Source: a virus (Duplodnaviria; Heunggongvirae; Uroviricota; Caudoviricetes). From it: DNA of 64,000 bases. The DNA lies in the IMG/VR virus record IMGVR_UViG_3300019458_000004, positions 1 to 64,000 of that record; one strand, given 5' to 3'. Of this stretch, positions 6,098 to 38,316 are shown piece after piece; positions within the stretch are counted from its first letter, which is position 1, and each line of letters begins with the position of its first letter. Below the pieces are notes generated by a model, which did not search any database, was not told the DNA's origin, and saw only the letters and a program-made list of their open reading frames with translations. The translations under genes and the position numbers were made by a program.

Positions 6098-6275
6098 CTA
6101 TATCTAACAAATTTCCAGATTTAGGCCCATAAAAAACCTTACCTGAATCATTATATTTTACTACACGTTTTGAATTATCTTGCAAGGTTCCAAAAAAACC
6201 CCAGTCAGTTTTCATAGTAATTTTGACCGGGATTCCGCTTTTGGTTATGTACGTTTTATTTAATTCGAGTTTCAT
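6063..6275 (-). CDS. hypothetical protein
   Basis: 70-aa ORF overlapping both HNH neighbours. Confidence 0.3.
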   Translation of the reverse strand: MKLELNKTYITKSGIPVKITMKTDWGFFGTLQDNSKRVVKYNDSGKVFYGPKSGNLLDIDEKTEETSKSG

Positions 6276-6918
6276 AATTAAGTATTATTTGTTTTATATG
6301 ATTAATAAAAACCTCAACAATCAAATTAACTTTCATTTTATTACAAATTTTACAACACGGAACGCAATTAGATAAGGAATATCCCATATTATTGTTAACT
6401 CTATCTATTCCATTATAAAATACTTGCTCGCTATGTTTTAATTTTGAATGGCGGCCTATTGGCTTGCTTCCACAATAATAACAGTTTTTAAAAATAAGAT
6501 TCTTGAATTCCTGAAAAGTTAATTCGAATTTGTAGTTCCGTTTTTTTGCGTGTGTTTTATAATCTTTTAAAACCCTTATTGTTAATCTATCATCCGGATT
6601 TAATAAATGAGTTCGTTGATGCTTTTGTAATGTTTTAAAAACATGCTCTATATTTAAACAACCACATGATTGTTTCCTGTTTTTAAGTAAGTCTCTTGAT
6701 GAAGCTCTACAAACCTTTCCACACTTACATAAACATTCCCAAACAGTTGAACAATATATATTGCATCCAAGAAGCTTAATAACTGTTAGTCTACCAAAAA
6801 TTTGGTCCTTTAGATTTTTTCGAATGAATTTAGCTTTGCTAATCGGCGTATTTTCTTGTGCCAAATCCCCTCGACAGTGTTTACGTATATTTTGTTTTTC
6901 CTCTTTTTCCACAAACAT
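6256..6918 (-). CDS. HNH endonuclease (HNH_3-like)
   Basis: YYCGSKP...NGIDRVNNNMGYSLSNCVPCCKICNKMK. Paralogous core in 12539..12901 and 42355..42771. Confidence 0.65.
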   Translation of the reverse strand: MFVEKEEKQNIRKHCRGDLAQENTPISKAKFIRKNLKDQIFGRLTVIKLLGCNIYCSTVWECLCKCGKVCRASSRDLLKNRKQSCGCLNIEHVFKTLQKHQRTHLLNPDDRLTIRVLKDYKTHAKKRNYKFELTFQEFKNLIFKNCYYCGSKPIGRHSKLKHSEQVFYNGIDRVNNNMGYSLSNCVPCCKICNKMKVNLIVEVFINHIKQIILNYETRIK

Positions 6919-13416: not shown

Positions 13417-14774
13417 TCAATTTCTTTTACTCCATTTGCTTTTAAAAATTCATTCGCTTTTGAAAAATACTTTCCCCCGAAGAAATGCTTCTCTGGCTGA
13501 CCTAATGGACTAGGGTGACCACCTTCTAATACTAAAACTTTATCATGTATCTTTAATTCCTGCAATTTATCTTTTGCGTATTTCCCCCATGCTAGTAATG
13601 CAATTGGTGTTTTATAATCCAAAACCCGTTGAATAATCTTGGTGGTAATCTGTTCCCAGCCTAATCCTTTGTGCGCGGCAGATTTCCCCTCTTCTGTCGT
13701 AAGTACAGAATTTAATAGAAGAACCCCTTGCTTCGCCCATGGCTCAAGATTCCCGCTTTTATAGCTCCAAGAATAACCTAAATCATTTCCTAATTCATTA
13801 AAAACATTAATTAGTGAGGGTGGAGGTTTTTTTCCGTGTTCTACAGAAAAAGCCAAACCACAAGCATCTTCCGCATTCAGATACGGATCTTGGCCTATAA
13901 TAATTACTTTTGTTTCCCATGGTTTAAAGTAAGTTAAGGCTCTAAACACTTGACTAGGCTTGGGAAGCGTTGTGGGGGCCTTTATCAACGTTTTAAGGGA
14001 TTCGGGTAGCTGGGCTATGTATTTATCTTCCGGACCCTCTATAAGCGATTTTAACTCATTTGGGGAAGGAATTAAGCCCGGGTTATTAGAATATTTGGCT
14101 AATATCTCGCCGTGGCAGGATTTCGGGGCACACCAACAACCTAATTTTTTCTCTTTTAATTCGGGTAATTGTTTTAACAAATCAAGGTTATTAAGTAAAT
14201 ACTTCTCGTATTCCTCAATAGCTTTTTCGCGCGATTCAACAATTTTTAATCCCTTAGAAGATAAATCTTTTTGATGACTAAATGGATTCCCCCAAATGGA
14301 AGGTCTACCTATATAAATGTCATATTTATCTTTTGTATGGTTTTTTACGTAGTTACTAGGATCTATTTCACAAAGCTGTTTAAAATTTTTCTGAAGAGCG
14401 TAGTTCAAGAGCTTTTCTCGAACCGGATAAATTGCCTCGAAAATTAAGGCCGATTTAAAGAGTTTTTCCAGCAACCCTTTTTTATCGTAATCACCATTAA
14501 AATCTCGTTCCAAACCTAAAGAACGATCTGATTTAAAATAAACTTGTACTTTATCGCCTTCTTGTAATCCTTCAATATTTTTAACAGCATCATACACTTT
14601 TTGTTCATTAGTTCGTTCGGGATTTAAGACAGCGGCAGTAATAGTTTTTTTAGAAGTCCAACGAGAAATATCTTTAATATCACATATTTCTTTAATATAT
14701 TTGTTATAAAGATTTAAAATTTGTTCATCCTTATTTAACATAAGTAAACCATAATTTATTCGTGTGCTTTGCAT
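13404..14774 (-). CDS. ung: multidomain protein: N-terminal unknown domain, DUF4326-like domain, family-1 uracil-DNA glycosylase
   Basis: C-terminus has UDG motifs IIGQDPY..GLAFSV and HPSPLG. Middle has YIGRPSIWGNPF...LGCWCAPKSCHGEIL (DUF4326-like). Confidence 0.7.
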   Translation of the reverse strand: MQSTRINYGLLMLNKDEQILNLYNKYIKEICDIKDISRWTSKKTITAAVLNPERTNEQKVYDAVKNIEGLQEGDKVQVYFKSDRSLGLERDFNGDYDKKGLLEKLFKSALIFEAIYPVREKLLNYALQKNFKQLCEIDPSNYVKNHTKDKYDIYIGRPSIWGNPFSHQKDLSSKGLKIVESREKAIEEYEKYLLNNLDLLKQLPELKEKKLGCWCAPKSCHGEILAKYSNNPGLIPSPNELKSLIEGPEDKYIAQLPESLKTLIKAPTTLPKPSQVFRALTYFKPWETKVIIIGQDPYLNAEDACGLAFSVEHGKKPPPSLINVFNELGNDLGYSWSYKSGNLEPWAKQGVLLLNSVLTTEEGKSAAHKGLGWEQITTKIIQRVLDYKTPIALLAWGKYAKDKLQELKIHDKVLVLEGGHPSPLGQPEKHFFGGKYFSKANEFLKANGVKEIDWRL

Positions 14775-15351
14775 GTCCTTTTAACACTTTCCAAATTAAT
14801 TGTTTGTGGATATTAAGGCATTTCGCCGCTTCACTTATTGAAGGATAAATTTGACCGTTGCTGCATCTAATTTGATGTTTTTTTCTAGTTAACCGAATTT
14901 TATGTTTTGTAATCTCGCTTGAAAACTTTCCTTTATTCCAAGGAATTTGTCCCTTATGACTTAAACTTAGATTTTGTTTATGTTCTTTAGTAAAGGGTTG
15001 CTTTTTTCGATTTTTTAATTTGATACTGATTTTTTGTTTTTGTTCCTCGGATTGTTTTCGACCGAGCATAGGCGCGGTTGCATTTTTTGCAATATTATAA
15101 GACGGGTTTAACTCTGTAAGATAAAATTGTTCGAGGATTAAACACTCTTTAATTGAACATTTATGAATAAAAATAAAATCAAAAACAAATTCTCCATATT
15201 TATTCCATGCTCTTTGTAACTTTATTGAATGATGCTTATTTCTATTAAGCAATGCTTTGTGTTTTTTTAAACGTAGTGGGACATTTTGGCTGCTTCCTAT
15301 ATAACACTTTCCATTGGTTCTATTTAAAATTTTATAAATCCCGGAATTCAT
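14731..15351 (-). CDS. GIY-YIG homing endonuclease (Seg-like)
   Basis: GIYKILNRTNGKCYIGSS...R..H. ATGA overlap with the DNA polymerase C-fragment. Confidence 0.8.
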   Translation of the reverse strand: MNSGIYKILNRTNGKCYIGSSQNVPLRLKKHKALLNRNKHHSIKLQRAWNKYGEFVFDFIFIHKCSIKECLILEQFYLTELNPSYNIAKNATAPMLGRKQSEEQKQKISIKLKNRKKQPFTKEHKQNLSLSHKGQIPWNKGKFSSEITKHKIRLTRKKHQIRCSNGQIYPSISEAAKCLNIHKQLIWKVLKGHAKHTNKLWFTYVK

Positions 15352-15656
15352 AATTCAAGTAAAATTTTAATAAATTCATTCATAAATTCTTGTAAAGCTT
15401 TTTCTTTACCTGTTGCTTTTAAAGCACTGCCTTTAATTTTAATCGTTCCATCTTGATGTTTAATTGCATAATTTTTTGCTTTTAAAGTAGCAATAACAGG
15501 AAAACAACCGTTTAGTTCCCAGATAATTGTTTTAGGATAAAGAGAGTTTAAAGAAAGACGAAGGGCTTCAATCTCTTCTTTAGAGAAAGAAGCCCCGGTC
15601 GGTTTCTTAAAAAATATAGAATCAGTATCGCAGGCTATAATTTCAAAGTTATTCAT
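15348..15656 (-). CDS. family-B DNA polymerase, C-terminal fragment (motif C + KKRY-like)
   Basis: IIACDTDSIFF (YGDTDS motif C) and KAKNYA (KKRYA-like). Motif C is absent from the large upstream ORF. Confidence 0.7.
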   Translation of the reverse strand: MNNFEIIACDTDSIFFKKPTGASFSKEEIEALRLSLNSLYPKTIIWELNGCFPVIATLKAKNYAIKHQDGTIKIKGSALKATGKEKALQEFMNEFIKILLEL

Positions 15657-16301: not shown

Positions 16302-16492
16302 ATCACTTTTCTCACTTTTTTGTATTTAGTATCTATAGTTCCGATGCCTTTGCAAAAAGGACATGAAATCCATCTAGTATCATATCCATTACTTTCATAC
16401 CCGCTAGATATTTCCTTTTGCCCACTACAATAAAAACAAGTTTCAGTCACTATTTTCGTTTGTGACTTCTTCTTTCGGCTTCCATTCTTCAT
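16286..16492 (-). CDS. hypothetical zinc-ribbon protein
   Basis: CFYCSG...CPFCKG. Confidence 0.35.
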   Translation of the reverse strand: MKNGSRKKKSQTKIVTETCFYCSGQKEISSGYESNGYDTRWISCPFCKGIGTIDTKYKKVRKVIWERV

Positions 16493-19076
16493 AAGTCTTC
16501 CCTGTTGCCCATTTAATAGCTGTTCCTAAAACTTCTCTTCCCCGCCTAGTAACTTCCGAAGCTCCGTGCGGATAATTAAAGTTTAACCCAGAACTTCCTA
16601 AAAAGCCATACATACTATTAATACCAACCTTTTGACTATTCTGCAAATCATCATAATACTTATCTTTTGTATCTTTTGCTAGCTTCTTATTTTTTAATCG
16701 CTCATTGGTAAAATATTCCAAAACTTTAAGAACGTGTTGTTGAGGGTCTTTATGTTTAGGATAGATTTTGTATTCCAGCATTACAGAAGGATAAAGAGAA
16801 GCCACGTCAAACGATAATACATTCTTATGAACTCCTGGAATACCATGAGAGATAGCTCCTTCAAATTCTACTGATTCATCTGCCTTTGGAATACTATGTT
16901 TATTTTGAAGATATGATCGAACAAGCAATGCATTCAATTGCGAACCACTAGCCGATTCTGTCATTAATTGAAAAGGCTTAGGAATGCTTTGTGTAAAATA
17001 AAAGACAGCCGGAATCATTAAATCATATAAATTTAAAGCATCGTCGCCGTCGAAGCAATTATGCGAAATTAAACCATTGCTAATATAGCTGTGTGTTCCT
17101 GTTACCGATATATTATGAACTTTTCCGGAGTATTTTGTTGCTTCAATTTTTTTAATTCTAACGTGTTTTTTGAAAACCTCTTTATTGTGACTTCTTAATA
17201 AATCGGTTCTTTGTTTAATCTTTAAATATTGATTGATTTCTTTTGATGCTTCTGTAAAAAAAGTTAGTTCATAAAATTGATGTTTAGAACGAACCGCTTG
17301 TCCATTAATATAATTTACTTTGCGGTGTGGTCTTGTTCGGAAATTTTGTCGCGTTAAATTTAATTCCATTGATGAAGATAATAAATCAATTATGTTTGCT
17401 AAATGAGGACTTGTTGTACATAAACTTAATTGAAAGCTTTCACCTTGATTTTTAGTTTTTCGAAGATGCCCGTCTCCATCTAGTAAACCTGCTAAAAAAT
17501 TAATGGCTAATCTTGGGTTATTATTTAATATATCAAAACATTCTCTTGATAATCTTTTCTCAGGAGATTTAAATTTTCCATTAGTCCAACGTAAAAATAA
17601 ATCAGCTAATTTATGATTTGAAACAACAATATCTACCGCTTTAGTATTCCCTTTTTTTACAATAGAATATTTATAATTAAGTTTGTCCAGGGTTTGTAAA
17701 ATAGTTTGGCATTGATTTTTATGTTGTGTGATTATTAAACTAAAATAATTTTTATTATTTTTTCTGATATATCCATCAGCTTGATATAAACCAAATAACC
17801 ACATTAAATCATCTCGAAATTTTAATGCTTTTTTAGTTTTTGCTTTTTCTCCTCTAACCAATAAATGATTTATTTTTAAATCTTGTGCTTTAATCCATTC
17901 ATATTTTAATGTTTTTTCATTTAAAACATAAAAAGGATGTTCTGGGGTGACGTTTAATATTTTCCGCCCGCCGTCAATATTAAAACTATACAATAATCCA
18001 TCATAATCTCTTTCAAGTTTCTCAAATACTTGTTGTGGTTTCCCATAACAATCAATAACAGTGTCTCCATTTTCAATATCTTCAATAAACTTCGTGCTAC
18101 CATTTTCAAGAGTAATTAAAGAACTTTTTGGTGCAAAACAAGCGTATTGTTTAATCTTTTCGAACTCTTCTGGGATATGGTATTTATGACGAATTTGTTC
18201 TCCATCATAAAATACACGATCTTTAACTTCTAAATTTTCTTGTTTAATAAGTTGCTTTAGTTTGTATGATTCGTATTTTCTTCCCACGTCATATCTTAAG
18301 GCTACAAAGAATCCATCGATCACGTCCCGACCATAAACATTAACTTTCTTGTATGTGTAGAATTGGGAACCGTCTTTACGAAACTTAGATTCATTTTTAT
18401 TAAACCATAAATCCGATCCGTCGCGGCCAAGAGCTAGGGTAGTTTCTTCGCGGCGGGCAATTGTTTCTAAATAAACGAGGTCAAAGCTATTAATATTATA
18501 TCCTAAAAGAATAGAAGGATTCATTTCCCGAACCCATTTCGTCCAAGCTTCAATCATTGGTTTTTGAGCTTCTGAAACATCTAAAGAATAATCGTTATAC
18601 GCAAAAAGTTTTCGGGTTATCTTTCCTTGTTTTCGAAATGTATTAGCGATAATTAAAACGTTGGCTTTAGGATCGTGAGGATTTAAAGAAGTAGTTTCAA
18701 TATCGAAAGAAAGGATAGACGGTTCATAGCTTTTCATGCCTTTGAAGCAGGTTACGCCGCTTTTGATCATAGCAGCTTCTTTGACATTCCAAATTAAATA
18801 AGAATCCTTGCTGGCAAAATATCGCGCGGCATTATACCATTCTTCTTGAGTATTAAAAAGAAGTGCGTGTTTGTAGTGAAGATTTCCGTTTAGCGGGATG
18901 GACTTGTTGCCGTGGGCGTAGGGAGTAAGTATCCAATGTTGATTTTGTTTGAATTCTGAAACAATGGTGCCATCTTCTTTTTCAATAAACAACTCCAAGT
19001 TGGAACCGTTAACCTCAATATTTGTAATTCGCTGCGTTTTATCTCGGCCATAAATTAATTGCTGAATATCAGACAT
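16443..19076 (-). CDS. family-B DNA polymerase, N-terminal fragment (exonuclease + palm motifs A/B) with a LAGLIDADG intein
   Basis: Exo I FDIETT, Exo II YNINSFD, motif A DVASLYPS, motif B KVGINSMYG. Intein from CFAPKS.. to ..GLISHN|C, with LFGLYQADGYI and LAGLLDGDGHL. The ORF ends about 50 aa after motif B, without motif C. Confidence 0.85.
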   Translation of the reverse strand: MSDIQQLIYGRDKTQRITNIEVNGSNLELFIEKEDGTIVSEFKQNQHWILTPYAHGNKSIPLNGNLHYKHALLFNTQEEWYNAARYFASKDSYLIWNVKEAAMIKSGVTCFKGMKSYEPSILSFDIETTSLNPHDPKANVLIIANTFRKQGKITRKLFAYNDYSLDVSEAQKPMIEAWTKWVREMNPSILLGYNINSFDLVYLETIARREETTLALGRDGSDLWFNKNESKFRKDGSQFYTYKKVNVYGRDVIDGFFVALRYDVGRKYESYKLKQLIKQENLEVKDRVFYDGEQIRHKYHIPEEFEKIKQYACFAPKSSLITLENGSTKFIEDIENGDTVIDCYGKPQQVFEKLERDYDGLLYSFNIDGGRKILNVTPEHPFYVLNEKTLKYEWIKAQDLKINHLLVRGEKAKTKKALKFRDDLMWLFGLYQADGYIRKNNKNYFSLIITQHKNQCQTILQTLDKLNYKYSIVKKGNTKAVDIVVSNHKLADLFLRWTNGKFKSPEKRLSRECFDILNNNPRLAINFLAGLLDGDGHLRKTKNQGESFQLSLCTTSPHLANIIDLLSSSMELNLTRQNFRTRPHRKVNYINGQAVRSKHQFYELTFFTEASKEINQYLKIKQRTDLLRSHNKEVFKKHVRIKKIEATKYSGKVHNISVTGTHSYISNGLISHNCFDGDDALNLYDLMIPAVFYFTQSIPKPFQLMTESASGSQLNALLVRSYLQNKHSIPKADESVEFEGAISHGIPGVHKNVLSFDVASLYPSVMLEYKIYPKHKDPQQHVLKVLEYFTNERLKNKKLAKDTKDKYYDDLQNSQKVGINSMYGFLGSSGLNFNYPHGASEVTRRGREVLGTAIKWATGKTYEEWKPKEEVTNENSD

Positions 19077-19330
19077 TAATTAAGTCTCTTGTAATTTACA
19101 CAAATTCTTGTGCTTTGCGGGAGGATTATTTTTGTCGCAGCATTATAAATAAAAATGACACTCGTTTTTGTTTCTGTGCAATTCCATTCTTTTTTAATTA
19201 GAGTAATTTTTTCACTCGTAATGGCATCCCAAATTGCAAAGGGTAATATGATAAAAGCAATTCCTAATAATCCAAAAGCTAAATACATTAAAAATGTTTC
19301 TATTTTATTTTCCATTTGATTCCTTCCCAC
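19076..19330 (-). CDS. hypothetical membrane protein
   Basis: TM helix YLAFGLLGIAFIILPFAIW. Confidence 0.4.
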   Translation of the reverse strand: MGRNQMENKIETFLMYLAFGLLGIAFIILPFAIWDAITSEKITLIKKEWNCTETKTSVIFIYNAATKIILPQSTRICVNYKRLN

Positions 19331-26654: not shown

Positions 26655-26662
26655 TTTAAAAC

Positions 26663-26736
26663 CTGCGGGAACAGGGATTGAACCTGTCATAAGCTCATTA
26701 ACAGTGAGTTGTGTCCACCTTGTTCACCTTCCCGCA
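26663..26736 (-). tRNA. tRNA-Asn (anticodon GUU), no encoded CCA
   Basis: Hand-folded cloverleaf: acceptor TGCGGGA/TCCCGCA (7/7), D-arm GTG-AACAAGGTGGA-CAC, anticodon loop CUGUUAA, T-arm ACAGG-TTCAATC-CCTGT, discriminator G. Confidence 0.8.
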
Positions 26737-26743
26737 AAACTTT

Positions 26744-28364: not shown

Positions 28365-28672
28365 TATTCAGCCTTTGAAATAAAATTTAAATCGATATAC
28401 TGATCCAACTGTTCCCGCATTTCATATTCAGCATCGGTCATAGATCCAGATTGAACTTGCAATTCAGGAGTTCCAACATCCCCCGTTAAGGGGTTATATT
28501 GAATCTTTACAATAACATTCTGTCCATTTGGGAGCTTAGACAAACCGAACGCGGTATCCGTTAAAGCTCCAAGATTAACAGGGTTATAATCAGCGTTGGG
28601 ATCTGGTTTTCTAGGGCGTCCTGCTTTTTTCTCGCTCATCTTTCTCCTAAACAAATTTATCATATCACCCAA
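28364..28672 (-). CDS. hypothetical protein
   Basis: 102-aa ORF. Confidence 0.4.
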   Translation of the reverse strand: MGDMINLFRRKMSEKKAGRPRKPDPNADYNPVNLGALTDTAFGLSKLPNGQNVIVKIQYNPLTGDVGTPELQVQSGSMTDAEYEMREQLDQYIDLNFISKAE

Positions 28673-29385
28673 TTCTTTTCTTGTAAAGCTTGAATTGCTA
28701 TTGGGCAGATATTTTCTTTAATAACTTCGTCTAACATCTTTTTAGCAACTTCTCTAATTTCAGGTTGCGCGTGGTCTGAATTTCTGAGCTTTTGAAAATT
28801 CGCAAAAGAACGTAAATTCATAATCGTTGTTCGTTCCGTCATTCCAGCCGTTGGAAGTTGGCCCCTTAAAATTTCCCGGCATCTTTTGTATTCCTGATTA
28901 GTAATTTCTCCTTGTTTTTCATAATGCTTTAATTTATCAATGCTTAATTTATAATTGTTTGTCGCTATTTCACAGGATTCATAATACGCCTCAAAAATAT
29001 TCCACTCAGGATTAGGGGATTTTGGGGTTGGGAAGATATTAGGCAGTTTATCAACTTTTTGAATAATATCATCAATATCGTCGGGAAGTTCATAGTAATC
29101 TGTGGGCATGGTCCTATATCTTCCGGAAAGTCCTGAGTGGCTTGCTATTCTATGTGTCATGATTTGACGGTCGGTAAAAATAGGAATTCGCATCCAAAAA
29201 CGAAATACAACTGATTCAAAAGGGGTGGAATGTCCATCCTTTGCTAAACGTTTAACAAGATCGGCTATTTGTTCTTCTGTTTTTGTCTCACGCTTTGATT
29301 TATCGAAGCTAGAAGTCCAAGCAGAATTTGCAACACTTTTATCGTTTCCCATTGATTCTTGAAGTTCTACAAGAATTTGATTCAT
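28660..29385 (-). CDS. thyX: flavin-dependent thymidylate synthase ThyX
   Basis: FESVVFRFWMRIPIFTDRQIMTHRIASHSGLSGRY matches the ThyX core with an (R/T)HRx7S-type motif. Start moved to Met20, with GAGGA RBS, so it clears the upstream RNA elements. Confidence 0.6.
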   Translation of the reverse strand: MNQILVELQESMGNDKSVANSAWTSSFDKSKRETKTEEQIADLVKRLAKDGHSTPFESVVFRFWMRIPIFTDRQIMTHRIASHSGLSGRYRTMPTDYYELPDDIDDIIQKVDKLPNIFPTPKSPNPEWNIFEAYYESCEIATNNYKLSIDKLKHYEKQGEITNQEYKRCREILRGQLPTAGMTERTTIMNLRSFANFQKLRNSDHAQPEIREVAKKMLDEVIKENICPIAIQALQEKNWVI

Positions 29386-29414
29386 AAAAATCCTCGGATA
29401 AAAAACGCCAAACG

Positions 29415-29484
29415 GATTAAACGAGAAGAGTCGAACTTCCATCTCTTGAAGTTAATCAAGCGCTTACCAACTAAGCTACGTCTC
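29415..29484 (-). ncRNA. tRNA-like element with non-canonical 6-nt anticodon loop (possible second Y-RNA/tRNA mimic or degenerate tRNA)
   Basis: Acceptor TGAGACG/CGTTTAA (one mismatch, one GU), D-arm GCTT-AGTTGGT-AAGC, stem CTTGA/TCAAG enclosing the 6-nt loop TTAACT, T-arm GGAAG-TTCGACT-CTTCT. Followed by GGCGUUUUUU. Confidence 0.4.
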
Positions 29485-29527
29485 ATACAGGTTGAGATAA
29501 CCGTTCAACTTTCGACCCGAATTTTAA

Positions 29528-29672
29528 AAATTTTCTGGATAAAAGGCGTCATGGGAAACCCCTTTCGGGAATGATTTGCTCTACCAACTGAGCTACAATC
29601 ATCTTTCGATGATTGACGGGATTCGAACCCGCGACCCAATCTCCATATAACCCATTAACTACGACCCAGAAA
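29528..29672 (-). ncRNA. Y-RNA-like ncRNA (YrlA-type) with permuted tRNA-like module, immediately downstream of the Ro60 orthologue
   Basis: On the minus strand: T-arm GCGGG-TTCGAAT-CCCGT, helix CAATCATC-GAAA-GATGATTG (acceptor-like stem closed by a GNRA tetraloop), D-arm GCTC-AGTTGGTA-GAGC, possible terminal stem UUUCUGG/CCAGAAA, then a U-run. The 5' end overlaps the last codons of the vWA ORF. Confidence 0.45.
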
Positions 29673-31218
29673 TAAACCTATTAATAACCTCAGTAACCGT
29701 AGAATCAAATCCCACAATTCGAAGAACGTTCTTATCGTTCATTTCAAAGTTTGAATATCCCCCAGCAACCATACCAACCTCAATAACCTTTACATCAAGA
29801 TTAATTTTACGATACAAAGCCAATTCTTGTACTGAGTGTGAATTACCAGCCCAAGTCTCGTTATCCGTTAGAATAACAATCACATCATACTTATTCTTAG
29901 TATGAAGAGCATACTTAATAGCTAGAGAACAGTCAGTTCCACCACCATTTGGCGTTCCACGAAGAATTTCATCAAGAGAATGCCTTCGACCAATTTGAGG
30001 CACCATAACCTTGGTATCAAACCAAATAAGCTCTGCATTAGCTTCAGAACGCATAATAGCCATTGAAAGAGCAGCCGATACATCCTTCGGAGTAAGTCTA
30101 GATTTATTAATCGTAGCCGAACTCATGCTGCCCGAAACGTCCACCGCCAAGAGAATACTCTTTCAAGTCGGCACAAGCACTTCTAAAGCCGCGTAATATG
30201 CGTTATTTAGGGCGTCATTGATGTTTTGATTGGGCGTCCACATCTTATTACCCAAATCGCCATGACCGCTGCTATAAACGCGTAGAGCATTTAATAGGGT
30301 CACAGAATGAACTTTAGATTTCTTAATGTTTTCAGCACTTAGCTTATTAACAATAGCCTTAGTCGTTTCACTGTTTCCAACCGTCATTCCGTTGCTAGCA
30401 AAACGGTTAAGATTACGAAGAAGAGCAAAAACTGGCATATTAACCAACAATGCATCAAGAATAGCCGGGGTATTCAATTGTTCATTAGGAATCATTTTCC
30501 AGGTCAAACGATATTCCTTAATGAATTCGGCAAGATCCTTGCCTTCCATCATTTGAGCTTTTTCAAAGGCAGCTAGAAGGTTATCTTCCGGAGCCGTTCC
30601 TTCTTCTTGAGTTAGATACTGGAAAATGTAATTATGTTCCGCCGAAGAAGCATGAGAAAGACGAAGAACGTCACGATGCTGAAAACCTTCACGATTTCGG
30701 TACTTTACAACTTGATACTCAACGTCCTTTGGCGTTTTAAGAGTATACCATTTAGAAACAGCAGTTCGAAGACCGCGTGACCAGCCACGAAGATTTTGCA
30801 CATTCGCTAGAAACATGAAAAGCTGAGTAGCGGTATTAAGAACACCAGGCATAGGAATTGCCGCATAAACCGCCTTTTTAACTTCCGCAGTTCCATGGGC
30901 AGCCAAAAGAGCCAATACAAATACAGAAGGATCAACCTTTGGAGCCTTCTTATTCTTCAAAACGTCAACAACAGTGCTAAGAACCTTAAACCCATCTTCC
31001 TTAATGTAATTAATTACAGCATTAGCATTTTCAACCGTTAAAGTCTGCTTATCAACATAATACGTTCCTTCTTCGGAACCAATAAGAAGAAATCGTTCAA
31101 GAAGTTCTTGATTGGTCACAGCAAAACTATAACCACCAGCATTATTCTTAACCATGGTTTTACCAGGAATAGGTTGTGTTTGATGCGTCTTTGAAATCAT
31201 TTTTGAGTAATTTCCCAT
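29659..31218 (-). CDS. rsr: Ro60/Rsr orthologue (TROVE domain + C-terminal vWA/MIDAS), interrupted by one in-frame TGA (30163-30165)
   Basis: ORF 30163..31218 is TROVE-like. ORF 29659..30150 has vWA MIDAS LAVDVSGSM..TDN. They are in the same frame and separated only by TGA: ..EVLVPT*KSILLAVDVSGSM. Confidence 0.7.
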
Positions 31219-31232
31219 TGTATTGTTCCTTT

Positions 31233-31448
31233 TTAATAATACGGATAAATAAATGTAAACCAGGGGTATTTTCCGATAAATAACCGGACTCCGTTCAAAA
31301 ACTCATCTGGTGTTTCCCAATCATCTTTTTTAGAAGAAAATAAAGCCTTTAGATTAGTATTAGGCTCCGGGGGATTATTAATTGTTTTATTAAACAATTC
31401 CCAGTCTTTTTCACTTAAAACGACTTTTTCTGTTTTTTCATCACTCAT
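31233..31448 (-). CDS. hypothetical protein
   Basis: 71-aa ORF. Confidence 0.35.
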   Translation of the reverse strand: MSDEKTEKVVLSEKDWELFNKTINNPPEPNTNLKALFSSKKDDWETPDEFLNGVRLFIGKYPWFTFIYPYY

Positions 31449-31627
31449 AAAAGCTCATCGAACCATTCCATTTCGTCTTTACCATTATCTTTTAATCGAT
31501 AATGACTAGCTTTTGTCTTAATATCCACAAATTCTACTGAATGCCTTTTATATGAATAATTTACCAAAATTGCAACTGTAGGTTGTCCGTTTTCACATTC
31601 GTAAATATCTTTAACTTCATAATCTAA

Positions 31628-32023
31628 TCAAGTATATTTTATATGCGCTAAAAGTTCAGTTAAATCATTAAAAAAGAAATCAAGTGCATTTCGAGCATCT
31701 CTTTGAGTTTTAATTGTTTCATGATTTTCTCGTTTCATACAACGATTAAAACAAGTTTCAAATGATTCATGAAGAACAACTATTCTAGTCTTATATCCGG
31801 CTTCTTTAGCTGGAATAAGGTATCGATTTCTTTGTTCTTTAGAGAAATTCATACGATCAACAATAATCGGTAATTCACTTTTAACCGATTCTAGAAAAAG
31901 CTTTTGATGCCCCTCTTTTCCTTGTAAATCTTGATTAATATAAACGGAATCATTTAATTCGCCTAAAGCTTTCGTACTTTTTCCGCTTCCGGGCGGTCCA
32001 ACGAGTAAAATGAGTTCTTTCAT
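31628..32023 (-). CDS. P-loop kinase (polynucleotide-kinase/AAA_33-like)
   Basis: Trimmed to MKELILLVGPPGSGKST. IIVDRMNFSKEQR motif. ATGA overlap with the upstream gene. Confidence 0.5.
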   Translation of the reverse strand: MKELILLVGPPGSGKSTKALGELNDSVYINQDLQGKEGHQKLFLESVKSELPIIVDRMNFSKEQRNRYLIPAKEAGYKTRIVVLHESFETCFNRCMKRENHETIKTQRDARNALDFFFNDLTELLAHIKYT

Positions 32024-32208
32024 CCGTAAATTCTCCAAAGGATAAAACCAAAACAAAGTAATCCTTTTAAAAATCTCTTTCCTAAAATGGCCCAAACTTT
32101 ATCAGCATGAGTTTTGAAAAGAATTTCATCTGTAGCAATAAATCCTATAATAAATTGAAATAAATAAAATATTCCAACTATTAATATGATCCAGTCAAGT
32201 GGTTTCAT
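32020..32208 (-). CDS. hypothetical small membrane protein
   Basis: Two hydrophobic helices. Confidence 0.35.
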   Translation of the reverse strand: MKPLDWIILIVGIFYLFQFIIGFIATDEILFKTHADKVWAILGKRFLKGLLCFGFILWRIYG

Positions 32209-32377: not shown

Positions 32378-32632
32378 TCATAACTCATTTTCTAATTTAT
32401 ATAGAAGCTCTAGAATTTCATCTATTTCCCAGATCGGTGCTGGGGTAAGTTCCACGCTAACACCTAAAGTGTATTTTAAATTCTGTAGCTTTTCAATAAC
32501 TGAGGAAAGAAGCTGCTTATTCGCCGATATTTCTGGTTCATAAATTACAGTTTTTTGTGCTCCAATTGCGCATTGATGAATAACATTATTTCCCCAATCT
32601 GCTCTGCAATAATTACAAACAATCTTTCTCAT
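32378..32632 (-). CDS. hypothetical protein
   Basis: 84-aa ORF. Confidence 0.35.
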   Translation of the reverse strand: MRKIVCNYCRADWGNNVIHQCAIGAQKTVIYEPEISANKQLLSSVIEKLQNLKYTLGVSVELTPAPIWEIDEILELLYKLENEL

Positions 32633-33096
32633 TATTTCTTCTCCGGTAAAACCATCAAATCATCATCTTGTTTAATCCATTTAATATATTCAAAAACTTT
32701 ATAAGCTATTTCTATACTTTCTTTAAGATGTCCTACCGCTAAATTACAACCATTACACAATAATGCTCTTATTTTACCAGTTTCATGACAATGATCTACC
32801 GATAAACCATATTTTTTCCCTTTAATTAAATTTTCAGAATTTCCACAAGCTTTACATTTATTGTTCTGTTTTAACAACATATCTTGATATTGTTCAGGAG
32901 TAATATTATAACGACGTTTGCGAAGGTTATCAGTTATAATTTTTTTATGCTTCTCTTTATTTTTTTCGTATCGCGCTCTACATAAAGCATTTCTTTTATC
33001 TTTATGTTTAAGATGCCTAAGTCGATCATAATGGATTATGCAAAGCCCCTTGACTTTCAACATTTGATCACAATTTTGAAAAGAACACTTTTTCAT
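32632..33096 (-). CDS. recombination endonuclease VII (T4 gp49-like Holliday junction resolvase)
   Basis: VDHCHETGKIRALLCNGCNLAVG (EndoVII signature) with an N-terminal zinc finger. Confidence 0.75.
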   Translation of the reverse strand: MKKCSFQNCDQMLKVKGLCIIHYDRLRHLKHKDKRNALCRARYEKNKEKHKKIITDNLRKRRYNITPEQYQDMLLKQNNKCKACGNSENLIKGKKYGLSVDHCHETGKIRALLCNGCNLAVGHLKESIEIAYKVFEYIKWIKQDDDLMVLPEKK

Positions 33097-35076: not shown

Positions 35077-35522
35077 TTCTTAATCTTTCCAGTCAAAAGA
35101 TCGAGTGTAACCATTTTATAATTACTACATTCATTATAGCTAACCTTGGTATAATCTTTTCCACCGTCTATAGCGACTTGTTCTACCACACAATCACATC
35201 CATTATAATGATGACGATTTACTGAGTAAACAACCATATTACAATTTAAACAATGAATAGCATCTTGATAACGCCATTTATTAATTTCTTTTTGAGTCAT
35301 GCCTCGAACCAGTACATAACCATTATTAGAATCAAGTTGTAAAAGCATGTACTTTTTGTGACCTTTTTCTTTGTTAGGAGATTTTGCTTTATAAACAGCC
35401 ACAGGAGAATATTCATCATTTGCACAAAAATCGGCGCAATAAGAAAGGTTGCCTTCAAATTTTTTTGCAACAGCTTTATGATTAAATCCATACCAGTTAA
35501 CTTGTTTAACTTTTGGTTTCAT
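35073..35522 (-). CDS. hypothetical Cys-rich protein
   Basis: 149-aa ORF. Confidence 0.4.
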   Translation of the reverse strand: MKPKVKQVNWYGFNHKAVAKKFEGNLSYCADFCANDEYSPVAVYKAKSPNKEKGHKKYMLLQLDSNNGYVLVRGMTQKEINKWRYQDAIHCLNCNMVVYSVNRHHYNGCDCVVEQVAIDGGKDYTKVSYNECSNYKMVTLDLLTGKIKK

Positions 35523-35767
35523 GGAGTTAACTCTTCCCAGTTAGCATATCTTAAACAAGGAATAACATCGGTTGTATATAGCCAATTTGAAATATCTTCG
35601 TGCTTAATTTCAATATAATCTTTAATAGTTAATGGCCAGCTAGCATCATACCCCATATTCCAACATTCGGCTTTGTATTTAATATATCCCGTTCCACCAT
35701 AAGTTGCAAGAACGCGCCAACAAATATCTCGGTATTGTTTGTGCTTTATAAAAAATAAATTATGCAT
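35519..35767 (-). CDS. hypothetical protein
   Basis: 82-aa ORF. Confidence 0.35.
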   Translation of the reverse strand: MHNLFFIKHKQYRDICWRVLATYGGTGYIKYKAECWNMGYDASWPLTIKDYIEIKHEDISNWLYTTDVIPCLRYANWEELTP

Positions 35768-36122
35768 AAAAAGGATCGTGTAAAGGAACCAAAGTTAAAG
35801 GCAGTTGTAAAAGCTTAGTTAATCTTTCAAGAACTTGTTCTGAAGTATGCCCATCCCATTTATAGTTATCATCTCTTGGAATTCTTTGCTCAATTAAGGG
35901 TAAATATTTTTCTTCAAAATGGTAGCTAATTTGTCCGGCAGTTGTTTCAATAAAAAGAACCGGCCATCCAGGATAATGAGGCTTCCAAGCTTTTTGGCCC
36001 GGAAAATTTAAAACAAGATTTAAATACAATAAAATTCTATGTTGATAAAGTTCTTCAAAAGTATGGTATCCATCAGAAACTTTCCGTGTTTCTTCAACGG
36101 ATAATGGAATAATAACACTCAT
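35760..36122 (-). CDS. hypothetical protein
   Basis: 120-aa ORF. Confidence 0.4.
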   Translation of the reverse strand: MSVIIPLSVEETRKVSDGYHTFEELYQHRILLYLNLVLNFPGQKAWKPHYPGWPVLFIETTAGQISYHFEEKYLPLIEQRIPRDDNYKWDGHTSEQVLERLTKLLQLPLTLVPLHDPFYA

Positions 36123-37720
36123 TGATCTTTCTCCACTTTACAAATAGCACAGTTTTTACCATCATATGAAATTCTATTTGATTGTATCTCTTCTCGGTGT
36201 TTATCGCAACCGGGAATTGCTGCAAAATATTCACTTATAATTTCAGGGTAATCAGCCCCATCAATAATTTCTTCTTTAATAAGAGGCCATTTTTTAAATG
36301 CTAATTCATAAGCCCGACGATATATCCACATTTGATATCGAACAGTTAGAGGATTAAAAATCCGCACAATTTTTGAAAGATAATCAATATCAAAACACCA
36401 TAACCATTTTGGATATCTTGAATAGACATATCCTGGATGAGTTATTGAATGAAGTTGATACCATCCAAACCCACAATAAACTCGGGCGGTATTACCGCAC
36501 CAAACCGGCTTACCTTTTCTTCTAATTAATAATAACTGATTTGGTATACTAACACAATAGACCTTTCCGTCATAATCAACAATACTTTCTTTATTTTTTT
36601 GAAGATCATGGGAATTGTACAATTCGAATTCGTTGCTTTTTTTAAGCCAATTAACCGTTATCTCGGGGTAATTATGTTTAATTATTCGATTATTAATCAT
36701 TGTCGGATTTTGGGATCTAGTTCTAGTAGATGTCCGAAATGAGTAACCCGCCTTCATTAATAAAAGACTAACGTCTTGTTCGAGCCGTGCTGAGACAGTT
36801 GATATTATATTAGTTGTTTTAGTTTTCCAACCATCACCTAGATAAAGATTAATTAAAAATTCTTCAATTAATCGGGAAGCTAACCCATGAATAAATTCTG
36901 GCACTTTTTTGTTTTCGGCTAAATGCCCGCAATTATTTAACAACCAAATACCAAGTTGTTTTGAATAAATCGTAATAATATAAGCTGAATCTCGCTTAGT
37001 AGTCTTGTACTCAAATGGTAGTTCTTTTAGGATATTTTCGACACAGTGCTTCTCTTCTTCAATTGTACCATTTAAACATAGAACAATTTGACTTTCCTTT
37101 GACACGTACCCTTCGGCTACGAACCAACCTAAAAATCGAAGCCACGGAATTATAGAAAGTTTGAGTTCTTCCGCATAAAAAATTCTTGTCGAATTTTCAA
37201 TATTATTCCATTCATTTTGATATCTAGGTAAGTTAAAATATTTCGGATCGGTCCCTTTCCAACGAAATGACTTTAAAAACTTTTTCGGTTTAAAGAATAG
37301 TTCTTGGTAGGTTTGTAGCTCATAGGGGTAGCTCTTACCGTGACAATTGCTTTGCCCGCCGTAGGTCGATCCCTTAGCAATATATAACTTATGATCCAAA
37401 GTCACTTTTAAATCAACACCACGACTTTTAATTGAGTACAGTTTTTTATGGTCACTTTGCTCGTGATATTTTATTGCTTGTTGATAAATTAAGTAGTTGT
37501 CTTTGTCTAAAGTGGCGAATAAATCTCGATTAATGTCAATGTTTTTAAAAAGTTTCCAGCCATTATTTGTCAAAACCTCGGTTTGGTCATCATAGCATCC
37601 GTATTTTTCTTTCGTTTGTGTAACTCCGATTCTTCCATATTTACGGCAATAATCTCCAATAAATTGTGCAGCTCTTCCAACATCTCCAAAATATTTGAAA
37701 TCTCCTGACCAATCGTGCAT
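36119..37720 (-). CDS. unknown protein carrying a LAGLIDADG intein
   Basis: Intein block A CYDDQTEVLT, block B VTLDHK, LAGLIDADG-like WFVAEGYV and LYLGDGW, C-terminus ..VWCGN|T. Exteins (about 40 aa + about 150 aa) not recognised. Confidence 0.6.
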   Translation of the reverse strand: MHDWSGDFKYFGDVGRAAQFIGDYCRKYGRIGVTQTKEKYGCYDDQTEVLTNNGWKLFKNIDINRDLFATLDKDNYLIYQQAIKYHEQSDHKKLYSIKSRGVDLKVTLDHKLYIAKGSTYGGQSNCHGKSYPYELQTYQELFFKPKKFLKSFRWKGTDPKYFNLPRYQNEWNNIENSTRIFYAEELKLSIIPWLRFLGWFVAEGYVSKESQIVLCLNGTIEEEKHCVENILKELPFEYKTTKRDSAYIITIYSKQLGIWLLNNCGHLAENKKVPEFIHGLASRLIEEFLINLYLGDGWKTKTTNIISTVSARLEQDVSLLLMKAGYSFRTSTRTRSQNPTMINNRIIKHNYPEITVNWLKKSNEFELYNSHDLQKNKESIVDYDGKVYCVSIPNQLLLIRRKGKPVWCGNTARVYCGFGWYQLHSITHPGYVYSRYPKWLWCFDIDYLSKIVRIFNPLTVRYQMWIYRRAYELAFKKWPLIKEEIIDGADYPEIISEYFAAIPGCDKHREEIQSNRISYDGKNCAICKVEKDQ

Positions 37721-38316
37721 TAGTCTTCCTTTTTAAATTTAGGACAATAAGCTGAATGTTTTGAACTGCCAACTGCTTCGGAACCGCATTCACATTTTTT
37801 AGCTAAGTCAGTCATAGTTTTTCTTGGCGGCGCAGCTTCATCAACATAGTAATATGGATAATTTGGAATAGTGATTTCAACCGTTTGATCTTCTGGACAA
37901 TTGGGTTTATGAGAATTAATTTTCCCACCACAAGAACAAGTAGTAGCCAACGCATCCAATCCACCTATTTTAATTAAATCAAGAGCTTGTGTTGGTGTAA
38001 TAAGTTGGGCTTTAATTAAATTGATTGCAATATTTTGTTTTTCAATAGAAATCAATTCTCTCGGGTAATTAAACCAATGTTCTGGGCCTAATGGAACCGG
38101 GATAGTCCAAGGATCTGGCCATTCAGCAACAATGTCTAAGTCATTATCACCAATTGTAAGATAAAGACCTTCAGGAGACCATTTATTGATCATCCATCCC
38201 CAATCATCAGACAATACCGCACCGTGGATTGAATAAAAACCTCGACCATTCAAAGTATAAATACGAACTTTTCGTCCGTTTCTCGTTTTATAAAATTTAC
38301 CGAATTCAATCTTCAT
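37720..38316 (-). CDS. hypothetical protein
   Basis: 198-aa ORF with C-terminal Cys pairs. Confidence 0.4.
   Translation of the reverse strand: MKIEFGKFYKTRNGRKVRIYTLNGRGFYSIHGAVLSDDWGWMINKWSPEGLYLTIGDNDLDIVAEWPDPWTIPVPLGPEHWFNYPRELISIEKQNIAINLIKAQLITPTQALDLIKIGGLDALATTCSCGGKINSHKPNCPEDQTVEITIPNYPYYYVDEAAPPRKTMTDLAKKCECGSEAVGSSKHSAYCPKFKKED

What the first reader, a model, noticed from the sequence alone, without database searches (positions are those of the whole stretch)
29386..31218. Phage-encoded Ro60/Rsr with an in-frame UGA, followed by a Y-RNA-like RNA whose tRNA module is circularly permuted
ORF 30163..31218 (TROVE) and ORF 29659..30150 (vWA MIDAS LAVDVSGSM) are one reading frame separated only by TGA: ..EVLVPT*KSILLAVDVSGSM. 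Ro60 orthologues are single TROVE+vWA proteins, so expression needs UGA readthrough or recoding; otherwise the gene is a fresh pseudogene. The minus-strand RNA directly downstream carries a canonical T-arm (GCGGG-UUCGAAU-CCCGU), then an 8-bp helix closed by a GAAA tetraloop (CAAUCAUC-GAAA-GAUGAUUG), then a canonical D-arm (GCUC-AGUUGGUA-GAGC). That is tRNA topology with the acceptor ends joined and the anticodon side open, which is the architecture reported for bacterial YrlA-type Y RNAs that partner Rsr. A candidate outer stem UUUCUGG/CCAGAAA and a U-run bracket the element, and a second tRNA-like element follows, resembling the rsr-yrlB-yrlA operon layout. A phage carrying its own Ro60-Y RNA module, possibly under stop-codon control, would be a tool for reprogramming host RNA turnover.
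Basis: partly seen in the sequence, partly recalled or inferred. Interest (0 to 1): 0.85.

Follow-up and report, generated by a model that had tools for sequence, protein, structure and literature searches.

The report
Phage Ro60 gene with Y RNAs
This is a phage copy of the already known Ro60 (Rsr) plus Y-RNA cassette, in which the Ro60 gene is cut by what looks like a recent Gly-to-stop point mutation rather than a programmed stop, followed by two well-supported Y RNAs, one with the usual YrlA layout and one holding a tRNA-like cloverleaf in normal tRNA order.

Summary
The sequence observations are correct. The TROVE ORF (30166..31218, minus strand) and the vWA_Ro60 ORF (29659..30162) share one frame and are separated only by TGA at 30163-30165.

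The "permuted tRNA" RNA is real. Its layout is the defining architecture of YrlA Y RNAs, described in 2014 for 254 bacteria and 22 phages. A phage Ro60-Y RNA-PNPase complex was characterised in 2025.

The UGA interpretation is not supported:
- The closest relative (91% identical, intact 519 aa) has GGA (Gly) at that codon.
- All 117 full-length homologues compared have a sense codon there.
- TGA is an ordinary stop elsewhere in this phage, with 25 ATGA-type gene junctions.
- No suppressor tRNA was found in about 73 kb.
- No decay of the vWA part is detectable.

The best reading is a recent GGA->TGA nonsense change. An assembly or variant artefact is not excluded.

Both RNAs share one scaffold: NNNGGGUCG..GGUUAU [module] ..UUUUAUCCNNN followed by a U run.
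- E1 (29532..29672) carries T arm, closed acceptor-like stem and D arm. It is supported by strong covariation and scores 109 bits with a model built without it.
- E2 (29392..29522) carries acceptor, D arm, anticodon-like arm and T arm, the order seen in Deinococcus Yrn1.

Relatives carry arrays of two to six such RNAs. Interest is modest.

The parts
30166..31218 (-). rsr part 1: the TROVE (HEAT-repeat ring) portion of Ro60/Rsr, 351 codons
   Evidence: Pfam TROVE scores 104 bits. The identical 351-aa product is on record from ENA, JGI and Logan assemblies. It is 91% identical to the intact 519-aa P0002.
30163..30165 (-). In-frame TGA at the TROVE/vWA junction. The codon is GGA (Gly) in the closest relative.
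   Evidence: The window reads ACT TGA AAG where L001 reads ACC GGA AAG. That column is G in 75, N in 37 and other sense residues in 5 of 117 homologues.
29659..30162 (-). rsr part 2: the vWA_Ro60 domain with MIDAS residues (DVSGS, GGGTD, LTDNE), 167 codons plus the TAG stop at 29659-29661
   Evidence: Pfam vWA_Ro60 scores 144 bits and covers profile positions 2-165 of 165. dN/dS against L001 is 0.16, with no further stops or frameshifts.
29532..29672 (-). Y RNA E1 (YrlA type). Lower stem at 29664-29672 / 29532-29540. Motif GGGUCGUAG at 29659-29667, overlapping the last rsr codons and the stop. Upper stem at 29651-29659 / 29548-29555. T arm at 29616-29632. Closed acceptor-like stem with GAAA loop at 29596-29615. 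D arm at 29578-29593. U run at 29526-29531.
   Evidence: Rfam YrlA 38.7 bits, E 3.7e-7. Model R1, built without the window, scores it 109 bits. Covariation is shown. The MFE fold recovers the same helices.
29392..29522 (-). Y RNA E2 (tRNA-order, Yrn1-like). Lower stem at 29515-29521 / 29392-29399. Motif GGGUCGAAAG at 29509-29518. Upper stem at 29501-29509 / 29407-29415. Acceptor-like stem at 29479-29483 / 29419-29423. D arm at 29462-29476. Anticodon-like arm (5 bp, 6-nt loop UUAACU) at 29445-29460. T arm at 29424-29440. U run at 29386-29391. The 3' strand GAGGA lies 6 nt before the thyX ATG.
   Evidence: Rfam tRNA 42.6 bits at 29416-29485. ARAGORN calls it tRNA-???. R1 scores it 46.6 bits through the scaffold. 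The MFE fold gives the scaffold plus three arms. Five homologous elements covary in the scaffold, D arm and AC arm.
28660..29385 (-). thyX (flavin-dependent thymidylate synthase), the next gene downstream. It ends in TGA.
   Evidence: Pfam Thy1 scores 125 bits. The alignment to L001 ThyX covers residues 1-242 of 242, including the stop.
31628..32023 (-). Polynucleotide kinase domain only (131 aa). Relatives have a 287-296-aa kinase plus HAD-phosphatase Pnkp, and L001 also has an RNA ligase.
   Evidence: Pfam AAA_33. tblastn matches only residues 1-117 of the L001 Pnkp, and there is no RNA ligase hit in the window.

Best explanation
The locus is a phage-borne Ro60 (Rsr)-Y RNA cassette of the known kind.

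What the window contains (shown):
- The window is a tailed-phage genome, with terminase, portal, family-B DNA polymerase, DnaB, RNR and ThyX genes.
- rsr encodes the Ro60 ring (TROVE) plus the vWA domain.
- Two Y RNAs lie directly downstream on the same strand, with no promoter-like or terminator-like signal above chance in between. Co-transcription with rsr is inferred.
- Both RNAs use one conserved scaffold. A lower stem NNN-GGGU/AUCC-NNN carries the Ro-binding-type motif GUCG(A/U)AG on its 5' strand. Then come an internal loop, an upper stem and a U run.
- The scaffold holds a tRNA-like module. In E1 the module is in YrlA order (T arm, closed acceptor-like stem, D arm). In E2 it is in native tRNA order (acceptor, D arm, anticodon-like arm without an anticodon, T arm).

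How it probably works (inferred from Deinococcus, Salmonella and Thermus phage phiLo):
- Rsr binds the scaffold.
- The tRNA-like module recruits a host partner such as PNPase, giving a RYPER-like machine that redirects RNA decay during infection.

The stop codon:
- In this genome the rsr ORF is interrupted at the TROVE/vWA junction by a single G->T change (GGA Gly to TGA). That the codon is GGA in the nearest relative is shown.
- I infer that it is a recent, lineage-specific nonsense mutation and not a programmed recoding site.
- At most a 351-aa TROVE-only protein, plus trace read-through or reinitiation products, would be made. The Y RNA genes remain intact.
For: Identity of the protein:
- Pfam TROVE and vWA_Ro60 match the two pieces.
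- With Gly restored, the protein aligns end to end with the Ro60 and Rsr structures 9nen, 1yvp and 2nvo (E 1e-68 to 1e-78, one stretch covering residues 10-515).
- 360 phage records carry Ro-like genes.

The stop is lineage-specific:
- P0002 to P0005 (72-91% identical) are intact at 518-520 aa.
- The window has TGA where L001 has GGA.
- 0 of 117 homologues have a stop at that column.

TGA is a real stop in this phage:
- 25 of 49 minus-strand frames that end in TGA have ATGA-type overlaps with the next ORF (example at 35519-35522).
- thyX ends in TGA at the same position as its L001 orthologue.
- There is no suppressor tRNA in the window or in 9 kb beyond it.

The change is recent:
- dN/dS against L001 is 0.12 for TROVE and 0.16 for vWA.
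- Window-branch N:S counts are 13:13 in vWA, against 11:14 on the L001 branch.
- There are no other lesions, and only 2 deviations at columns conserved at 95% or more.

RNAs:
- Arrays of the same scaffold flank rsr in L001, L002 and L004 to L010, and in Gordonia phage Cashline.

Mechanism by analogy comes from PMC4201824 and PMC12135203.
Against: - The stop falls exactly at the domain boundary, 4 codons before vWA strand beta-1, so both pieces are complete domains. That would also suit a split or read-through arrangement.
- The same truncated product is recorded from three assembly sources, so it is not an obvious one-off assembler error. Whether the three are independent samples is unknown.
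- The lack of detectable relaxation of the vWA part is equally what continued expression would give.
- No expression, binding or read data are available.
- About 16 kb of the 89-kb contig could not be scanned for tRNAs.
Confidence: 0.7

Rival explanations
1. Leaky or programmed UGA read-through. The main product is the TROVE-only protein, and a set fraction of ribosomes read UGA (probably as Trp, through a near-cognate tRNA) to give full-length Rsr, so the stop acts as a dosage valve.
For: - The stop is followed by A. From my own knowledge of Poole, Brown and Tate 1995, UGA-A is a relatively weak termination context in E. coli.
- A 5-bp hairpin AAGAG-UAUU-CUCUU starts 1 nt after the stop (read).
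- The affected position tolerates G, N, K, L, E and D.
- The vWA part shows no decay.
Against: - No relative has a stop there (0 of 117). The nearest has GGA, so there is no evolutionary conservation of a recoding site.
- The hairpin is also present in L001, where the codon is sense, so it simply encodes the conserved KSILL.
- No suppressor tRNA was found.
- TGA terminates efficiently enough to serve in 25 coupled gene junctions.
Confidence: 0.08
2. Sequencing, assembly or consensus artefact, or a minority allele. The functional phage population carries GGA and an intact rsr.
For: - It is a single-base difference from the relative's GGA.
- The rest of the gene looks fully constrained.
- The source is a metagenome assembly (MEGAHIT-style contig name).
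Against: The identical 351-aa and 155-aa products are on record from ENA, JGI/IMG and Logan, which includes at least two different assembly pipelines. Substitution errors in short-read consensus sequences are rare (own knowledge). The point cannot be settled without the reads. Exact-pattern scans for strain variants found nothing.
Confidence: 0.12
3. Functional split gene. Termination at UGA is followed by reinitiation 13 nt downstream at TTG 30150-30152, or at ATG 30126, and the TROVE and vWA polypeptides reassemble non-covalently.
For: - The stop sits exactly at the domain junction.
- TTG lies 4 codons after the stop, with a weak AAGAG purine tract 8 nt upstream.
- Coupled reinitiation is common in this genome.
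- A gene caller called a 155-aa vWA ORF.
Against: - A TTG start would remove KSIL, which is half of strand beta-1. The ATG start called by the gene caller removes the DxSxS MIDAS motif altogether.
- There is no canonical GGAG or GAGG Shine-Dalgarno sequence, unlike thyX (GAGGA).
- Of the 120 best-scoring homologues listed, only one other lacked the vWA domain (P0102, 347 aa), and it looks like a contig-end fragment. So there is no precedent for a split Ro60 in that set.
Confidence: 0.07
4. Alternative genetic code. UGA is read as Gly (code 25, Gracilibacteria/Absconditabacteria) or as Trp (code 4) in the host, so the gene is intact.
For: The codon replaces the majority residue Gly (75 of 117), and GC content is low at 34.6%.
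Against: - TGA ends many genes, with immediate ATGA restarts.
- thyX and other conserved genes stop at TGA where their orthologues stop.
- The other same-frame ORF pairs separated by TGA are not continuous genes.
- The late genes are intact under code 11.
Confidence: 0.02

Closest known systems
YrlA Y RNAs with Rsr (Salmonella, Mycobacterium smegmatis, mycobacteriophages; Rfam RF02553; Chen et al. 2014, PMC4201824)
   Same: - E1 has a terminal stem formed by its 5' and 3' ends.
- A GNCGAA-type motif lies near the 5' end.
- The module runs T arm, closed acceptor-like stem-loop, D arm, with tRNA-invariant T-loop and D-loop bases.
- The RNA is encoded within 4 kb of rsr on the same strand, and more than one Y RNA is present per locus.
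   Different: - It scores only 38.7 bits against the Rfam model, whose gathering score is 69.
- The motif is GUCGUAG rather than GNCGAA(N)G.
- The 3' strand of the scaffold (UUUUAUCC) is as conserved as the 5' strand.
- The 5' end overlaps the rsr stop codon.
- The host phage is an uncultured low-GC phage, not an actinophage.
Deinococcus radiodurans Yrn1 (Chen et al. 2000, 2013, 2014)
   Same: E2 has the D arm before the T arm, with an 'anticodon' arm of 5 bp and a 6-nt loop between them. This is the feature PMC4201824 describes for Yrn1. Both strands of the Ro-binding helix are recognisable.
   Different: - E2 also has an acceptor-like stem and a canonical D arm, and it scores as a tRNA (42.6 bits).
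- No sequence-level Rfam hit to a Deinococcus Y RNA family appeared.
- It sits in tandem with a YrlA-type RNA on the same scaffold, and its homologue in L001 has a GAAA tetraloop instead of the 6-nt loop.
Thermus phage phiLo Ro60 with Yrl1 and Yrl2 (PMC12135203, structures 9KOP and 9L5Y)
   Same: It is a phage-encoded Ro60 with two adjacent Y-like RNAs that carry a CGAA-type motif. A complex with host PNPase has been shown, which is the functional model adopted here.
   Different: - The protein is only distantly related (E 4e-7).
- The phiLo RNAs lie upstream of the gene. The paper mentions tRNA only twice in its text and does not use the term YrlA, so a tRNA-like domain is evidently not a feature it discusses.
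- The phiLo gene is intact.
Salmonella rsr-yrlBA-rtcBA RNA repair operon (PMC7790460)
   Same: Ro60 and Y RNAs are clustered with RNA end-healing and sealing enzymes. The relatives L001 and L004 have Pnkp, and L001 also has an RNA ligase, just upstream of rsr.
   Different: The phage enzymes are of the T4 Pnkp and Rnl type, not RtcA and RtcB. In the window only the kinase domain remains and there is no ligase.

Membership tests
Ro60/Rsr | TROVE (HEAT-repeat ring) domain | tested here: met
   Pfam PF05731 scores 104 bits. The protein aligns over its whole length to 9nen, 1yvp and 2nvo.
Ro60/Rsr | C-terminal Ro60-type vWA domain with MIDAS residues | tested here: met
   PF25045 scores 144 bits across the whole profile. 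DVSGS, GGGTD and LTDNE are visible and invariant in alignment A1.
Ro60/Rsr | Both domains in one uninterrupted polypeptide | tested here: not met
   There is a TGA at 30163-30165. All 117 homologues compared have a sense codon at that position.
Ro60/Rsr | Binds Y RNA and the 3' ends of misfolded RNA | not testable with these tools
   This needs RNA immunoprecipitation or EMSA.
YrlA (Rfam RF02553) | Score at or above the Rfam gathering threshold | tested here: not met
   38.7 bits against a threshold of 69, with E 3.7e-7 in a 401-nt search. Relatives score 30-43 bits.
YrlA (Rfam RF02553) | Order T arm, acceptor-like stem-loop, D arm, inside a stem formed by the 5' and 3' ends | tested here: met
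   Met for E1. All five helices are supported by covariation, with 94.9% of cells paired and 20 of 28 pairs showing double changes. The MFE fold agrees. E2 does not have this order.
YrlA (Rfam RF02553) | GNCGAAN0-1G motif near the 5' end (PMC4201824) | tested here: inconclusive
   E2 has GUCGAAAG, an exact match. E1 has GUCGUAG, with one mismatch, and that variant is the majority form in this phage clade.
YrlA (Rfam RF02553) | Encoded within 4 kb of rsr on the same strand | tested here: met
   E1 overlaps the rsr stop codon and E2 follows 10 nt later, both on the minus strand. They are the only two hits of model R1 in the 64 kb.
YrlA (Rfam RF02553) | Bound by Rsr, with tRNA-type modifications (pseudouridine 55, dihydrouridine) | not testable with these tools
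   This needs an experiment.
tRNA (RF00005), tested for E2 | Cloverleaf score above the gathering threshold | tested here: met
   42.6 bits against a threshold of 29.
tRNA (RF00005), tested for E2 | 7-nt anticodon loop with a readable anticodon, a 7-bp acceptor stem and a free 3' end | tested here: not met
   The loop is 6 nt (UUAACU) and ARAGORN reports 'tRNA-???'. The acceptor stem is 5-6 bp and continues into the Y scaffold. The L001 homologue has a GAAA tetraloop in place of the loop.
Programmed stop-codon read-through or recoding | The stop codon is conserved among relatives | tested here: not met
   0 of 117 homologues have it. The nearest relative has GGA.
Programmed stop-codon read-through or recoding | A dedicated suppressor tRNA or genome-wide reassignment of TGA | tested here: not met
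   The only tRNA calls are tRNA-Asn and the tRNA-like E2. TGA is used as the stop in 25 coupled junctions. About 16 kb of the contig was not seen.
Programmed stop-codon read-through or recoding | A measurable read-through product | not testable with these tools
   This needs a reporter assay or proteomics.

The most novel reading that the evidence does not exclude
In this clade of uncultured phages the Ro-binding scaffold may serve as a modular display platform for tRNA mimics. Different modules are swapped into homologous slots of arrays of two to six Y RNAs around rsr: T/acceptor/D, a complete tRNA-order cloverleaf without an anticodon, T arm only, or no module. In the closest relatives the arrays lie next to tRNA-repair enzymes (Pnkp, RNA ligase). 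The mimics could act as decoys or adaptors aimed at host tRNA-targeting defence nucleases or tRNA-processing enzymes, rather than only as PNPase tethers. The TGA allele of rsr would then be a natural 'RNA-only' or attenuated variant.
Probability: 0.12. Interest if true: 0.65.

Novelty: new member of a known kind. Interest (0 to 1): 0.3.

Why it matters
As a discovery it adds little. Phage Ro60-Y RNA modules and the YrlA tRNA-mimic layout are established, and the stop codon is most simply a sporadic nonsense allele.

It has three practical uses:
- It shows that Rfam's YrlA model misses a whole clade of phage Y RNAs at its gathering score. A clade-specific model built here finds them at 70-130 bits.
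- It shows that 'tRNA-???' or pseudo-tRNA calls next to rsr can be Y RNA modules.
- It documents, with covariation, that YrlA-order and Yrn1-order tRNA-like modules can sit on one shared scaffold in the same locus. This bears on the published suggestion that the two types evolved independently.

Tried and rejected
- **Alternative code (UGA = Gly or Trp).** Rejected from stop usage, ATGA overlaps and orthologue ends.
- **A second in-frame TGA elsewhere.** The pair 35519..35794 / 35297..35518 is an ATGA junction to a gene in another frame. The 60 codons after the kinase ORF (31449..31627) have no similarity to the phosphatase domain present in relatives, so this is a truncation, not read-through.
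- **Suppressor tRNA.** None in the window or in L066.
- **Strain variants at the TGA.** Exact-pattern scans of metagenome contigs and viral contigs found nothing, not even the window itself. The first viral-contig search with the single protein also found nothing.
- **Decay signal in the vWA part.** None detectable.
- **P0102, a 347-aa TROVE-only hit, as precedent for a split Ro60.** It has no contig on record and ends 7 residues before the window's stop, so it looks like a fragment.
- **Gordonia phage Cashline, whose match touched two annotated genes.** This is only an 11-nt overlap with the next gene, and its Ro gene is intact.
- **Promoter and terminator scan of 28600-32200.** Nothing above the shuffled expectation.
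- **Host identification through bacterial genomes.** The best hit was 51% identical on a 4.8-kb MAG contig and all others were 41% or lower, so the host remains unknown.
- **blastn against cultured phages.** No match.
- **Two reviews (PMC10870794, PMC6047535).** Neither is held in the library.
Full report
**Observation**

On the minus strand the window carries an ATG-initiated ORF at 30163..31218. It is followed, in the same frame and after a single TGA (30163-30165), by 167 further codons down to a TAG at 29659-29661.
- Pfam assigns the first piece to TROVE (104 bits).
- Pfam assigns the second to the Ro60-specific vWA domain (144 bits, covering the whole profile).
- tblastn of the joined sequence against 50,697 phage records gives single alignments that run across the stop (query 10-518). 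It finds Ro-like genes in 360 records, mostly actinophages.
- With the stop replaced by Gly, the protein aligns end to end with the solved Ro60 and Rsr structures 9nen, 1yvp and 2nvo.

**What the stop codon is**

A search of 5.8 billion proteins found the exact 351-aa product (P0001) and then intact 518-520-aa relatives at 91, 79, 74 and 72% identity (P0002 to P0005).
- The DNA alignment with the 91% relative (L001) shows ACT TGA AAG in the window against ACC GGA AAG.
- In an alignment of 117 full-length homologues the column is G in 75, N in 37 and K, L, E or D in 5. It is never a stop.

TGA is an ordinary stop in this genome.
- 24 of 88 long ORFs end in it.
- 25 of 49 minus-strand frames ending in TGA overlap the next ORF's start in ATGA fashion, against 1 of 32 on the other strand.
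- The neighbouring thyX ends in TGA exactly where its L001 orthologue ends.
- The two other places where a TGA separates same-frame ORFs are not continuous genes.
- ARAGORN finds only tRNA-Asn and the tRNA-like element in the window, and nothing in 9 kb beyond it.

So the stop is neither a code change nor a conserved recoding site.

The gene otherwise looks healthy.
- dN/dS against L001 is 0.12 for TROVE and 0.16 for vWA.
- Window-branch N:S counts (21:28 in TROVE, 13:13 in vWA) do not differ meaningfully from the L001 branch (24:45 and 11:14).
- There are no other stops or frameshifts.
- Only two residues deviate at columns conserved at 95% or more, E241K and P305S.

The simplest reading is a recent GGA->TGA substitution. 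The truncated product is recorded from ENA, JGI and Logan assemblies. That argues against a one-off assembler error, but it does not prove that the samples are independent, and read-level data were not available. Read-through, reinitiation at TTG 30150 and a minority-allele artefact stay open at low probability each.

**The RNAs**

A simple motif scan showed that every element around rsr, in the window and in relatives, is built on one scaffold: NNNN-GGGUCG, 5-16 nt, GGUUAU, [module], UUUUAUCC-NNNN, then a U run. The flanking Ns are complementary.

*E1 (29532..29672).*
- The scaffold encloses a T arm, an 8-bp stem closed by GAAA, and a D arm.
- Rfam's YrlA model matches it over the full length at 38.7 bits, E 3.7e-7, below the gathering score of 69. 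Relatives score 30-43 bits.
- In twelve homologous elements from eight contigs, RNAalifold finds five helices.
- 94.9% of cells are paired, against 36-46% with slid partners. Twenty of 28 pairs have changes on both sides, and no shuffle in 500 reaches the observed values.
- A covariance model built from the eleven non-window sequences scores E1 109 bits over the full length.
- The same search also scores E2, giving two hits in all in the 64-kb window.
- The 5' strand of E1, with the motif GGGUCGUAG, is also the last four codons and the stop of rsr (ISGS*).

*E2 (29392..29522).*
- It has the same scaffold, with an exact GNCGAA(N)G motif (GUCGAAAG).
- Its module runs acceptor-like stem, D arm, a 5-bp arm with a 6-nt loop, and T arm.
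- It scores 42.6 bits as a tRNA, but ARAGORN cannot name an anticodon.
- The MFE fold gives the scaffold plus three arms.
- Five elements of this type from five contigs covary in the scaffold, D arm and anticodon-like arm. The L001 homologue closes that arm with a GAAA tetraloop, so no anticodon is conserved.

**Context**

The window is a tailed-phage genome: terminase, portal, family-B polymerase with an intein, DnaB, class II RNR, RecA and ThyX. GC content is 34.6%. There is no DNA-level match to cultured phages and no close bacterial Rsr, so the host is unknown.

Relatives carry larger arrays.
- L001 has one mini Y RNA upstream of rsr and four Y RNAs downstream.
- L002 has three, and L004 and L005 have two plus a mini.
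- L006 to L010 have several, of four module types: YrlA order, tRNA order, T arm only, and none.

L001 and L004 have a full Pnkp just upstream of rsr, and L001 also has an RNA ligase. The window keeps only the kinase domain and has no ligase. The cassette in the window is therefore a reduced version of the one in its relatives, which fits an accessory region that varies and sometimes decays.

**How it probably works**

The following is inferred from published systems.
- Ro60 contacts mainly the 5' strand motif of the Y RNA stem (PMC4201824).
- In Deinococcus, Salmonella and Thermus phage phiLo the Y RNA tethers Ro60 to PNPase (PMC4201824, PMC12135203).

By analogy, phage Rsr would bind the GGGUCG scaffold of E1 and E2, and the tRNA-like modules would engage host factors. 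From the TGA allele the main product would be a 351-aa ring-only protein. Whether that protein is active is unknown.

**Comparison with what is known, and novelty**
- The 'circularly permuted tRNA' is the published defining layout of YrlA.
- Phage Ro60 genes have been known since the first mycobacteriophage genomes. YrlA RNAs were reported in 22 phages in 2014, and a phage Ro60-Y RNA-PNPase complex was solved in 2025.
- E1 is a divergent member of this family that falls below the Rfam threshold.
- E2 has the module order that PMC4201824 describes for Deinococcus Yrn1, including the 5-bp stem and 6-nt loop. Here it sits on the same scaffold as a YrlA-type RNA. I did not find that arrangement described in the papers I could read.

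The stop codon gives no evidence of a regulatory device.

**Verdict**

This is a new member of a known kind, and interest is about 0.3.

Noticed in passing
window 31628..32023 (-), compared with L001 193-1083 and L004 2284-3147: The polynucleotide kinase gene keeps only the kinase domain (131 aa). Relatives encode a 287-296-aa kinase plus HAD-phosphatase Pnkp, and L001 also has an RNA ligase (L001 1668-2858). The window has no ligase.
   Followed up: yes
L001 3915-3981, L004 3917-3984, L005 496-563 and 2272-2337, L007 2419-2480, L009 2120-2184: There are mini Y RNAs of 62-68 nt, consisting of the scaffold and a small loop only, like YrlB or Yrn2. Most lie just upstream of rsr. The window has only a 14-nt gap at that place.
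   Followed up: partly
L001 5938-6032 and L002 5784-5878: A third module type sits on the same scaffold: a UUCG hairpin plus a T arm only, with no D arm.
   Followed up: partly
L001 about 6245-6370 and L002 about 6030-6160: A conserved GC-rich element of about 110 nt (GCCCCCTTCGAG ... AAAAGGGGTACCCGATTT) lies directly upstream of the thyX start. It is absent from the window and has no Rfam hit at E < 0.01. It may be a cis-regulatory RNA.
   Followed up: no
window 16443..19079 (-): The family-B DNA polymerase ORF contains an intein with a LAGLIDADG endonuclease. The Pfam DNA_pol_B match ends at profile position 201 of 453, and the ORFs immediately downstream are not polymerase. The rest of the polymerase domain was not located.
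   Followed up: partly
L014 (Gordonia phage Cashline, MW534378.1) 224-363 and 372-506: The covariance model built from the uncultured-phage Y RNAs finds two tandem Y RNAs (70-71 bits) just upstream of the Ro gene of a cultured actinophage. The scaffold model therefore generalises beyond this clade.
   Followed up: partly
window 29659-29672 and 29392-29399 (-): The Y RNA ends share sequence with gene signals. The 5' stem and Ro-binding motif of E1 are the last rsr codons and the TAG stop. The 3' stem of E2 (AUCCGAGGA) contains the GAGGA Shine-Dalgarno sequence 6 nt before the thyX ATG.
   Followed up: no
window 31233..31448 (-): This 71-aa ORF corresponds only to the N-terminal TacA1-like part (residues 1-59, 56% identity) of a 204-aa Dam-like protein in L001.
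   Followed up: partly
window 14731..15354, 32632..33096, 36119..37732 (-): There are several homing-endonuclease-type genes (GIY-YIG/NUMOD, endonuclease VII, LAGLIDADG), which suggests a heavily invaded, mosaic genome.
   Followed up: no
window 26662-26737 (-); L002 8617-8691; L004 7743-7818: A tRNA-Asn(GTT) lies a few kb downstream of the rsr cassette and is conserved in two relatives.
   Followed up: no
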